From: Sphingobacteriales bacterium
GTDB taxonomy: Bacteria > Bacteroidota > Bacteroidia > Chitinophagales > Chitinophagaceae
DNA length: 64,000 nucleotides
NCBI GenBank assembly: GCA_016235125.1
Contig: JACRLZ010000005.1
Coordinates: 13,707-77,706, forward strand
Reading direction: 5' to 3'
Below are positions 34,249-34,956 of this stretch, in pieces. The position numbers and the translations under genes were made by a program. The notes beneath the pieces are model-generated. The model had not been told where the DNA came from and did no database searches. It saw nothing but the letters and a program-made list of their open reading frames with translations. Within the stretch, counting starts at the first letter, position 1. Every line of letters starts with the position of its first letter.

Positions 34249-34956
34249 TTAAATATTTCTTGGATTCTTCCATTGTTTCCCCAATCTTTCAATCGTTCCC
34301 TTAATTCTTTCCATTCTTGTTTCTTCTCTTTTTGCCGTTACAATCCATTCTATATATTCTTTCTTGTTGGTAAAAGAAAGTGTATTGAAAAAATCAGATT
34401 GCTTTTTATTTTTCTTTAATGCAGCAGCAAGATCATCTGGTAGTTTTACCTCTTTGGTTTCCGGATTTACCCAATTAAAAATTTCTCTTGGCGAAGAAGG
34501 TTTGGCTTCTTTCTTTCTATCGACCTCCGTTTTGGCCCTGAAACCAAATACACTCCATGTATCGTTAAATGAGATGAGGCTTATCCAGGTCAGTTTATCT
34601 CCTTCAGCTAACAGGCAATCCCAGCCTTTATCCCTCGTTAAGTCTGTTTGTAACCTGGAGGATACTTTTGGATAATATACCCAAACAGTCACTTCCGGTT
34701 TCACCAGTTTCATTACTTTGCTCATTTCTTTTTCCAATTGAGCTTTGTTGTATACAAACCAATGCACCTGGTTATACCCGATAGCTATCGGGTCTTTGAC
34801 ACTGTCTGAAATTTTCACTCCTGCAGGTAAACCCTGCAGGCCCTTTTTAAAATCAGCTGGTGCGTTGAGAGTAAGTAAACTGTATTTAGGTTTTATCCGG
34901 AGCTTGTCTGCAATAGAACTGGCCATACGGTTTTTGTTTCCGTAAAAGTAAAGCAC
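34249..34956 (-). CDS. YdeI/OmpD-associated family protein
   Basis: WVYYPK...TDLTRDKGW, C-terminal OmdA domain LPDDLAAAL...KKEYIEWIVTAKREETR. Confidence 0.88.
   Translation of the reverse strand: MLYFYGNKNRMASSIADKLRIKPKYSLLTLNAPADFKKGLQGLPAGVKISDSVKDPIAIGYNQVHWFVYNKAQLEKEMSKVMKLVKPEVTVWVYYPKVSSRLQTDLTRDKGWDCLLAEGDKLTWISLISFNDTWSVFGFRAKTEVDRKKEAKPSSPREIFNWVNPETKEVKLPDDLAAALKKNKKQSDFFNTLSFTNKKEYIEWIVTAKREETRMERIKGTIERLGKQWKNPRNI
34776..34793. repeat. Perfect 18-bp palindrome inside ydeI
   Basis: ACCCGATAGCTATCGGGT; near-identical to the intergenic TCCCGATAACTATCGGGA at 36685. Confidence 0.85.

What the first reader, a model, noticed from the sequence alone, without database searches (positions are those of the whole stretch)
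34776..34793. Intergenic palindrome family translated in frame inside ydeI (DPIAIGY)
Seen: a perfect 18-bp palindrome ACCCGATAGCTATCGGGT lies inside the coding region. It differs at only three positions from the intergenic TCCCGATAACTATCGGGA at 36685. Inference: a short mobile palindrome inserted without breaking the frame and added about 5-6 residues to a loop. This parallels the Rickettsia palindromic elements that insert into ORFs. It is the clearest of several such cases in this window.
Basis: partly seen in the sequence, partly recalled or inferred. Interest (0 to 1): 0.62.

Follow-up and report, generated by a model that had tools for sequence, protein, structure and literature searches.

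The report
Tiny mobile hairpin inserted in ydeI
The 18-base palindrome inside this YdeI-family gene is a real in-frame insertion of a tiny hairpin repeat found across Bacteroidia; it adds five residues (PIAIG) to a protein loop, and how it moves is unknown.

Summary
ACCCGATAGCTATCGGGT lies at 34776-34793 inside a minus-strand YdeI/OmdA gene and is read D-PIAIG-Y. The intergenic TCCCGATAACTATCGGGA at 36685-36702 differs at three positions.

All 14 orthologous YdeI sites I could read in other species of the genus lack the 15 bases. So do 101 of 120 metagenomic orthologues. About 17 carry them, perfect or decayed, at the same site, and one carries the same 18-mer four codons upstream.

Six other in-gene copies in this genome are also extra relative to orthologues. 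They lie in a PLP enzyme, DUF2400, an M14 peptidase, an SNF2 helicase, RecQ and a hypothetical protein.

Two filled-versus-empty DNA comparisons show the 18-mer replacing exactly 3 bases. The net gain is 15, so the frame is always kept.

The unit is exactly 18 bp, a 7-bp stem with a 4-nt loop. Its outermost pair varies but stays complementary in 96% of copies. It is nearly confined to class Bacteroidia, at 0-72 perfect copies per genome, and it also occurs in viral contigs.

No linked mobilising gene was found. Association with Y1/RAYT-like transposases is weak and confounded.

I found no description in the searchable literature. Earlier agents of this scan reported the same element elsewhere.

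The parts
34776..34793 (.). 18-bp perfect palindrome ACCCGATAGCTATCGGGT. It is the A..T subtype of the Bacteroidia hairpin element (7-bp stem, 4-nt loop AGCT).
   Evidence: DNA hairpin -6 kcal/mol, z -4.9. One search shows the unit is exactly 18 bp; 7 of 12 perfect copies in this genome are the A..T subtype.
34777..34791 (-). The 15 extra bases CCG ATA GCT ATC GGG (PIAIG, residues 46-50 of the 225-aa protein). Most orthologues lack them.
   Evidence: the 41-50 block has the lowest pLDDT (59) and lies between strands 38-40 and 53-57.
34249..34926 (-). Host gene, a YdeI/OmpD-associated (OmdA, PF13376) family protein of 225 aa. It is intact and in frame.
36685..36702 (.). Intergenic copy TCCCGATAACTATCGGGA. 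It is the dominant T..A subtype with one loop mutation (G to A).
36658..36755 (+). Host intergenic repeat (GCCACAAAG...CACGAAG | CACGAAG...CTTAGTGGCAAAAAA) into which the 36685 copy is set. Paralogous copies elsewhere in the genome have GAT where this one has the 18-mer.
   Evidence: C7:237346, C7:438666 and a C7:3396xx copy read CACGAAG-GAT-TCACGAAG.

Best explanation
The palindrome is one copy of a very small mobile DNA element of class Bacteroidia. The element is an 18-nt self-complementary hairpin, N-CCCGATAGCTATCGGG-N'. It is copied into new sites and replaces 3 target bases, for a net gain of 15. Because the net gain is a multiple of three, any copy landing in a gene keeps the frame. Two of its three reading frames are open (PIAIG and PDSYR). 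The third contains TAG and would be lost to selection. In ydeI it landed at G|AYT|AY between the Asp and Tyr codons of a surface loop, added PIAIG, and left the protein intact.

Shown here: the insertion itself, its recurrence in unrelated genes, the 18-for-3 replacement at two non-coding sites, the exact 18-bp unit with a co-varying outer pair, the distribution across the class, and the patchy copy number.

Inferred: the copying goes through a single-stranded hairpin intermediate recognised by a conserved trans-acting protein. An HUH/Y1 (RAYT-like) enzyme is one candidate, at about 25% of my belief. The mover is not identified. The confidence given is for 'inserted copy of a small mobile element', not for any particular enzyme.
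For: (1) Empty orthologous sites. All 14 readable YdeI loci of other species in the genus lack the 15 nt, for example AAA GAG TAC GAC CAG against AAA GAC CCG ATA GCT ATC GGG TAT AAC CAG. Of 120 metagenomic orthologues, 101 lack it.
(2) An independent second site. P0005 has the same 18-mer four codons upstream: ACT GAC CCG ATA GCT ATC GGG TCC.
(3) Six other in-gene copies in this genome are extra relative to orthologues. PLP enzyme, 0 of 14 relatives filled. DUF2400, inside the invariant RKQTD|W, absent from all 20 relative loci read. M14 peptidase, 1 of 18. SNF2. A hypothetical protein and RecQ.
(4) 18-for-3 replacement seen at DNA level. CACGAAG-GAT-TCACGAAG in paralogues against CACGAAG-[18-mer]-TCACGAAG in the window. 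GCTGAG-ACT-TCGTCTCAGC against GCTGAG-[18-mer]-TCGTCTCAGC in G016.
(5) Unit definition. The positions flanking the 16-mer core are complementary in 96% of 134 copies (T/A 79%, C/G 8%, A/T 7%, G/C 2%). Pairing drops to 19% at the next position out (16-38% further out). Mismatches cluster in the 4 central bases, and two copies carry a compensatory stem change.
(6) Three filled ydeI alleles differ at 45-52% of synonymous-capable codons, yet their 15-nt inserts are identical. Other alleles carry decayed inserts: PIALG, PIATG, PINIG, PVATG.
(7) Distribution. Copy number is 0-72 among 24 genomes of one genus. In the phylum sample, 26 of 75 Bacteroidia genomes hold at least one copy against 1 of 225 in other classes. 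At least 118 of 120 genome-contig hits are Bacteroidota by name. 51 viral contigs hold it.
(8) Flanks are non-random. T immediately 5' of the element is 6% against a 29% background, and G..T flanks number 58 against 22 expected.
Against: No transposition event was observed.

For the in-gene A..T copies, 18-for-3 cannot be told apart from a plain 15-nt insertion after GAC, because the target already supplies A, C and T. The SNF2 and RecQ copies give +4 residues, not +5.

The ydeI tree is too weak to tell repeated insertion from one insertion plus recombination or loss.

No gene is recurrently linked to copies across 186 loci. Of 12 RAYT-like loci in other genomes, 0 carry the element.
Confidence: 0.82

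Rival explanations
1. The copies are not selfish. The hairpin is a functional DNA or RNA signal, such as a protein-binding site, a terminator or stability hairpin, or a recombination or replication signal. On this reading the cell maintains it, and in-gene copies are tolerated by-products or add a useful RNA structure.
For: The sequence is identical across a whole class. The stem is conserved with compensatory changes while the loop varies. Some copies are followed by a T-run like an intrinsic terminator, for example C6:209249 AACCCGATAGCTATCGGGTTTTTTC. Perfect conservation in three diverged ydeI alleles could reflect selection.
Against: Copy number is 0 in many close relatives and in most Bacteroidia sampled, so the cell does not need it. 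Positions are not conserved between species. Decayed copies exist at the same ydeI and SNF2 sites. It sits inside conserved protein motifs such as RKQTD|W, where a signal has no obvious role. There is no Rfam match in the window.
Confidence: 0.1
2. The element spreads without a dedicated enzyme, by replication template switching or gene conversion from other genomic copies. A related version is capture of a self-annealed palindromic 18-mer oligonucleotide during break repair.
For: No linked gene was found. A perfect palindrome can self-anneal into a blunt duplex. The G000 SNF2 copy is perfect while orthologous copies in G016 and G013 are heavily decayed, which looks like re-conversion of an old copy. 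Lineage-specific subtypes, with A..T dominant here, fit copying from resident copies.
Against: The two T..A-type filled/empty pairs show no microhomology between the element ends and the target: GAT and ACT were replaced by T...A. The constant 3-nt loss and the non-random flanks suggest a defined cleavage geometry. Confinement to one class argues for a lineage-specific factor.
Confidence: 0.2
3. PIAIG is ancestral in YdeI and has been lost repeatedly, because palindromes stimulate deletion. Nothing was inserted.
For: Palindromes are deletion-prone (general knowledge). The protein tree does not exclude a single origin of the filled state.
Against: The filled state is a minority: about 17 of 120 orthologues, and none of the 14 readable loci from other species of the genus. 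Identical 18 nt recur in at least 6 unrelated genes where orthologues lack them. A second site exists in the same gene. The same 18-mer is found in intergenic repeats whose paralogues have 3 other bases. Repeated deletion would have to restore a functional codon pair exactly each time.
Confidence: 0.04
4. DPIAIG is a protein motif selected at the amino-acid level, and the palindrome is a by-product of codon choice.
For: The motif is always read in the same frame in the confirmed in-gene copies of this genome.
Against: There are 1152 ways to encode DPIAIG. All copies use one of them, and it is also the intergenic sequence. One in-gene copy is read in the other open frame, PDSYR in RecQ. The host proteins are unrelated.
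Confidence: 0.01

Closest known systems
REP elements / REPINs and their RAYT (Y1, HUH) transposases (PMC3116915; GTAG- and CGTC-tagged REPs, PMC3733652)
   Same: Both are short dispersed hairpin-forming repeats with patchy copy number. REPs have been reported inside genes, in frame (PMC3733652). Y1_Tnp genes are common in these genomes. In one relative, G016, copies lie in hairpins beside three RAYT-like genes.
   Different: This element is 18 bp and a perfect palindrome, against 20-40 bp and imperfect for REPs. It has no GTAG or CGTC tag. Half of the perfect copies in this genome are inside genes. It replaces 3 target bases. The same sequence is shared across a whole class, whereas REPs are species-specific. 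The RAYT adjacency is explained by insertion into the RAYT's own flanking hairpin (empty copy L191) and is absent in 12 of 12 other RAYT-like loci.
Rickettsia palindromic elements (RPE; Ogata et al. 2000, from memory; mentioned in PMC3733652)
   Same: Both are palindromic repeats found in frame inside functional protein genes, adding a peptide segment in tolerated regions.
   Different: RPEs are about 100-150 bp, add tens of residues and are confined to Rickettsia. This element is 18 bp, adds 5 residues and belongs to Bacteroidia. There is no sequence relation.
Small dispersed repeats SDR1-8 of heterocyst-forming cyanobacteria (Elhai et al. 2008, Genome Res 18:1484; not held in the library, cited from memory and via PMC5861425)
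   Same: Both are very small (21-27 nt) mobile repeats, some with central palindromes. Both insert into other repeats and genes, and neither has a known mobilising enzyme.
   Different: They differ in phylum, sequence and size. I could not check whether SDRs replace a fixed number of target bases.
HIP1 (GCGATCGC) of cyanobacteria (PMC5861425, PMC4390886)
   Same: Both are palindromes conserved across a large clade, common in coding and non-coding DNA, and of unexplained origin.
   Different: HIP1 is 8 bp and present in thousands of copies. It arises within existing sequence rather than as an insertion, and it is linked to methyltransferases. Here orthologue gaps show true insertions, and copy numbers run from 0 to tens.

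Membership tests
REP / REPIN (RAYT-mobilised) | Imperfect palindrome of 20-40 bp carrying a conserved GTAG or CGTC tetranucleotide at one end | tested here: not met
   The unit is exactly 18 bp and perfectly palindromic, with neither GTAG nor CGTC.
REP / REPIN (RAYT-mobilised) | Copies flank a cognate RAYT gene | tested here: inconclusive
   None of the 3 Y1 genes of G000 is flanked by the element. Three RAYT-like genes of G016 have copies in their flanking hairpins, but a paralogous empty hairpin shows these are secondary insertions. 0 of 12 RAYT-like loci in other genomes carry it. The genome-level association is confounded by size.
REP / REPIN (RAYT-mobilised) | Predominantly extragenic location | tested here: not met
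   6 of 12 perfect copies in G000 lie in coding sequence.
Rickettsia palindromic elements | 100-150 bp palindromic repeat inserted in frame in ORFs of Rickettsia | tested here: not met
   The in-frame location is met. Size (18 bp) and lineage (Bacteroidia) are not.
MITE | Terminal inverted repeats with a target-site duplication; 70-300 bp | tested here: not met
   There is no duplication. Three target bases are lost instead. The size is 18 bp.
HIP-type iterated palindrome | Arises by substitution within existing sequence, with no length change against orthologues | tested here: not met
   Orthologues show gaps of 5 or 4 residues at every tested in-gene copy.
Intrinsic terminator | GC-rich hairpin followed by a U-tract at a gene's 3' end | tested here: not met
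   The ydeI copy is mid-gene with no T-run. A few other copies do have a T-run.
Known RNA family (Rfam) | Match to a curated covariance model | tested here: not met
   0 matches at gathering threshold in the whole window.

The most novel reading that the evidence does not exclude
The 18-nt hairpin is a distinct class of mobile DNA, the smallest known autonomous-looking repeat. A machinery conserved in class Bacteroidia moves it and swaps it for exactly three target bases. Every insertion therefore preserves the frame, so the element acts as a natural five-residue peptide inserter in housekeeping proteins, RNA hairpins and other repeats. Perfect copies at sites where relatives carry decayed copies (SNF2, ydeI) would then reflect recurrent re-insertion at hot spots, or re-conversion.
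Probability: 0.45. Interest if true: 0.8.

Novelty: new variant of a known kind. Interest (0 to 1): 0.62.

Why it matters
If the element really moves by an '18 in, 3 out' reaction, it points to a DNA-joining activity in Bacteroidia that has not been described. It would also explain a stock of odd short peptides (PIAIG, PDSYR) in annotated proteins and of spurious small ORFs across the phylum.

In practice it is a marker for recent indels in otherwise conserved genes, including invariant motifs such as RKQTD|W in DUF2400. It may break short-read assemblies: one relative with 72 copies (G016) has copies at or near contig ends. It also supplies natural experiments on loop tolerance in proteins.

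For ydeI itself the consequence is probably small. The insert is a five-residue addition in a low-confidence loop of an intact gene.

Tried and rejected
(1) A maximum-likelihood tree of 120 YdeI orthologues was built to decide between single and multiple origins. It is too poorly resolved: 12 changes are inferred, but supported branches force only 1.
(2) I looked for a linked mobilising gene by clustering all ORFs within 1.2 kb of 186 copies. Only phage structural genes and a DGR-type reverse transcriptase from a few related viral contigs recur, and nothing recurs in cellular genomes.
(3) The RAYT hypothesis. The three Y1 genes of G000 are flanked by other hairpins, not this one. The adjacency in G016 is secondary. 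0 of 12 other loci have it.
(4) Paralogous empty sites were sought for all 26 CCCGAT-N4-ATCGGG copies in G000. Only the window's intergenic copy has one.
(5) Literature. Full-text searches for the sequence, PIAIG and PDSYRD found nothing relevant. Elhai et al. 2008 is not held.
(6) Rfam gave no match.
(8) I considered a terminal-repeat footprint of a larger transposon. I dropped it because the unit ends sharply at 18 bp and has lineage-specific outer pairs, and I saw no longer element bounded by its halves.

Full report
OBSERVATION

The plus strand reads ACCCGATAGCTATCGGGT at 34776-34793. This is a perfect 18-bp palindrome. It lies in the minus-strand ORF 34249-34956. The product carries an OmdA/YdeI domain (PF13376, E 2e-19). 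Orthologues begin MA(S/N)SI, so the likely start is the ATG at 34926, giving 225 aa.

On the coding strand the region reads AAA GAC CCG ATA GCT ATC GGG TAT AAC, which is K-D-PIAIG-Y-N. The intergenic sequence TCCCGATAACTATCGGGA is at 36685-36702 and differs at positions 1, 9 and 18. No such match occurred in 100 shuffles of the window. In the 3.57-Mb genome (9 contigs, 41% G+C; window = C4:13707-77706) the 16-mer core occurs 12 times perfectly, 9 times with one mismatch and 9 times with two. The reversed-core control gives 0, 0 and 0.

IS IT AN INSERTION?

Yes. In an alignment of 22 orthologues at 79-90% identity, more than half read SGKD-----YNQ where this protein reads SVKDPIAIGYNQ. At DNA level, all 14 readable YdeI loci from other species of the same genus lack the 15 bases, for example AAA GAG TAC GAC CAG.

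Among 120 metagenomic orthologues, 101 lack the insert. About 17 have five (or four to six) extra residues at the same site. These are PIAIG or evident decay products: PIALG, PIATG, TIAIG, PINIG, PVATG, PGATG. One orthologue, P0005, has the identical 18-mer four codons upstream: ACT GAC CCG ATA GCT ATC GGG TCC GGT. That is an independent event in the same loop.

Two further filled alleles (L141, L142; about 80% protein identity to ours) carry exactly the same 15 bases. Yet 45-52% of codons for conserved residues differ synonymously between these genes. Under neutral drift from one old insertion the chance of five unchanged codons is about 0.04 per pair. So the perfect copies are either recent and independent, or refreshed, or constrained. 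The protein tree is too weak to choose.

THE SAME HOLDS IN OTHER GENES OF THIS GENOME

I compared each in-gene copy with orthologues in 24 genomes of the genus.
- A PLP-dependent enzyme (C5:331138) reads KPDD-PIAIG-FDAS. All 14 relatives lack PIAIG.
- A DUF2400 protein (C8:60737) reads RKQTD-PIAIG-WQAA. All 20 relative loci read (from 19 genomes) have RKQ(T/N)DW without PIAIG or any gap there, apart from G022, which is divergent in this stretch; so the insert splits a nearly invariant motif.
- An M14 peptidase (C2:38960, one mismatch, PMAIG) is filled here and in one relative (G013, PIAIG) and empty in 17.
- A hypothetical protein (C3:464257) has PIAIG against a 5-residue gap in its two closest relatives.
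- An SNF2 helicase (C6:296699, C..G subtype) reads T-PIAIG-A where most relatives read KNS, a gain of 4 residues. G016 and G013 have decayed versions, PVSKG and PVGNG, at the same place.
- RecQ (C6:209249) carries a copy in the other open frame, PDSYR, in its lysine-rich N-terminal linker. That is 4 residues longer than the nearest relatives.

All seven in-gene copies tested, including ydeI, are therefore extra relative to orthologues. Of the 12 perfect copies, 6 are in coding sequence: 5 in the PIAIG frame, 1 in the PDSYR frame, and none in the frame that contains TAG.

ANATOMY OF THE ELEMENT

I took 134 copies from a scan of one genome per prokaryote species. The bases immediately outside the 16-mer core are complementary in 96% of them: T/A 79%, C/G 8%, A/T 7%, G/C 2%. 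Complementarity falls to 19% at the next position out (16-38% at positions further out). The unit is therefore exactly 18 bp, with an outer pair that varies but co-varies.

In this genome 7 of 12 perfect copies are the A..T subtype, which is rare phylum-wide. That fits copying from resident copies. Mismatches in imperfect copies cluster in the four central bases (17 of 27). Two copies carry a compensatory change of the outer C-G pair to T-A. As single-stranded DNA it folds into a 7-bp stem with a 4-nt loop at about -6 kcal/mol.

Flanks are not random. T is rare immediately 5' of the element on either strand (6% against 29%), and G...T flanks are 2.6-fold enriched.

WHAT HAPPENS AT THE TARGET

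Two non-coding comparisons give the answer directly. The window's intergenic copy lies in a repeat whose paralogues read CACGAAG-GAT-TCACGAAG (C7:237346, C7:438666 and a third). The window reads CACGAAG-TCCCGATAACTATCGGGA-TCACGAAG. In a relative (G016), a hairpin upstream of a RAYT-like gene reads GCTGAG-ACT-TCGTCTCAGC in one copy and GCTGAG-TCCCGATAGCTATCGGGA-TCGTCTCAGC in two others.

In both cases 18 bases stand where 3 stood. For the in-gene A..T copies the target (G-AYT-) already supplies A and T, so 18-for-3 and a plain +15 cannot be separated. Two things fit overwriting. The residue before PIAIG is Asp or Asn in 15 of the 17 filled alleles (the two exceptions, Gly and Val, precede decayed inserts), as the forced xAC codon predicts. 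And relatives often have Glu, Thr or Gln there. The +4 cases (SNF2, RecQ) show the rule is not absolute, or that later indels occurred.

DISTRIBUTION

Perfect-copy number ranges from 0 to 72 among 24 genomes of the genus. In a phylum sample, 26 of 75 genomes of the same class hold at least one copy (maximum 45), against 1 of 225 from other classes.

The first 120 hits of the species-wide scan are Flavobacteriales, Chitinophagales, Sphingobacteriales, Cytophagales and Bacteroidales. Two exceptions are a MAG labelled Variovorax, probably a mis-binned contig, and one 'uncultured bacterium'. 51 viral contigs also carry it.

MECHANISM

The mechanism is not solved. Y1_Tnp (IS200/RAYT-type) genes are common in the genus. 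This genome has three intact ones, flanked by other short hairpins, not by this element. It also has divergent RAYT-like genes, including a broken one in the window at about 40088-40444.

Across 74 Bacteroidia genomes the element co-occurs with Y1_Tnp (23/25 against 31/49, p 0.012) and with the divergent RAYT-like type (19/25 against 18/49, p 0.003). But positive genomes are also larger (p 0.002), and the signal fades among genomes of 3.5 Mb or more. Copies next to RAYT-like genes in G016 are insertions into those genes' own hairpins. Twelve such genes in other genomes have none. No other gene is recurrently linked.

The evidence suggests a strand-aware cleavage and joining reaction. The points are the constant unit, the co-varying outer pair, the loop-tolerant and stem-conserved pattern, the asymmetric G...T flanks of a symmetric element, and a tendency to sit in or beside the loops of other hairpins. 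I think this most likely acts on a single-stranded hairpin through a trans-acting protein. An HUH/Y1 enzyme is a candidate, not a finding. Template switching or conversion from resident copies, and capture of a self-annealed 18-mer in break repair, remain open.

CONSEQUENCE FOR YdeI

In an AlphaFold2 model (mean pLDDT 84.6) residues 46-50 fall in the lowest-confidence block (pLDDT 59), between strands 38-40 and 53-57. The gene is intact.

KNOWN OR NEW

REPs inside genes (PMC3733652), Rickettsia RPEs and cyanobacterial SDRs are the nearest known kinds. This element fails the defining features of REPs (tag, size, extragenic bias), of MITEs (no target duplication) and of HIP-type palindromes (true insertions). 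Searches of the held literature for the sequence or its peptides found nothing.

Earlier agents of this scan described the same element in other genomes. I treated those notes as leads and re-tested the main claims here.

LIMITS

No event was seen happening. Copy counts use perfect 16-mers only. Gene calls are ORF- and homology-based.

Noticed in passing
window 40088-40444 (+): A divergent RAYT-like (Y1/HUH, motifs MPNHLHFIW and YIHMNP) gene that is broken: there is a frameshift between the N-terminal part and the core, and an internal stop. It is homologous to intact about-190-aa genes in relatives.
   Followed up: partly
window 11-36: A 26-bp perfect palindrome, TTAAATGAATGGTACCATTCATTTAA, inside a 370-aa ORF (LNEWYHSFN). 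About 0.002 are expected by chance. It is unique in the genome, so it is not a repeat family.
   Followed up: partly
window 49012-49031: A 20-bp perfect palindrome, AGTACTCAGTACTGAGTACT, inside a 544-aa ORF. It is unique in the genome.
   Followed up: partly
L192 (G016:C626) 1248-1263 versus L191: A RAYT-like protein itself carries an in-frame copy of the element: FAVVVPMAIGRVDVF against FAVVEWVDVF in a paralogue.
   Followed up: partly
L199/L201/L202 (SNF2 orthologues of G000, G016, G013): G000 has a perfect copy (T-PIAIG-A). At the same site G016 and G013 have heavily decayed copies (PVSKG, PVGNG), and most species have a shorter KNS. This suggests re-insertion or re-conversion at one site.
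   Followed up: partly
L195 (G022:C10:12800-15800): A 208-bp tandem repeat with at least four units, each carrying the palindrome, plus one more unit 1.2 kb away. G181 has a similar array with a 403-bp period.
   Followed up: partly
G000 C7:450366-450833, C6:294713-295177, C2:26678-27199: Three intact Y1_Tnp genes, each flanked by other short hairpin repeats (for example ACGTTCCTACGGAACGT, GCGTCCCGTAGGGACGC, CCGGAGCTTTAGCTCCGG, ACCCCGAAGGGGT). These are probably their own REP-like partners.
   Followed up: no
L248 and three other viral contigs: A DGR-type reverse transcriptase (IGNYTSQYFANLYL, YADD) lies 0-170 bp from copies of the palindrome in a few related viral contigs.
   Followed up: no
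L126 (contig of a MAG labelled Variovorax paradoxus): Two copies of the element next to tRNA-like sequence in a MAG labelled as a proteobacterium. The contig is probably mis-binned.
   Followed up: no
G000 C7:203041 and C6:39738: Copies immediately beside tRNA genes or tRNA-like sequence. C6:206828 lies just downstream of a tRNA.
   Followed up: no
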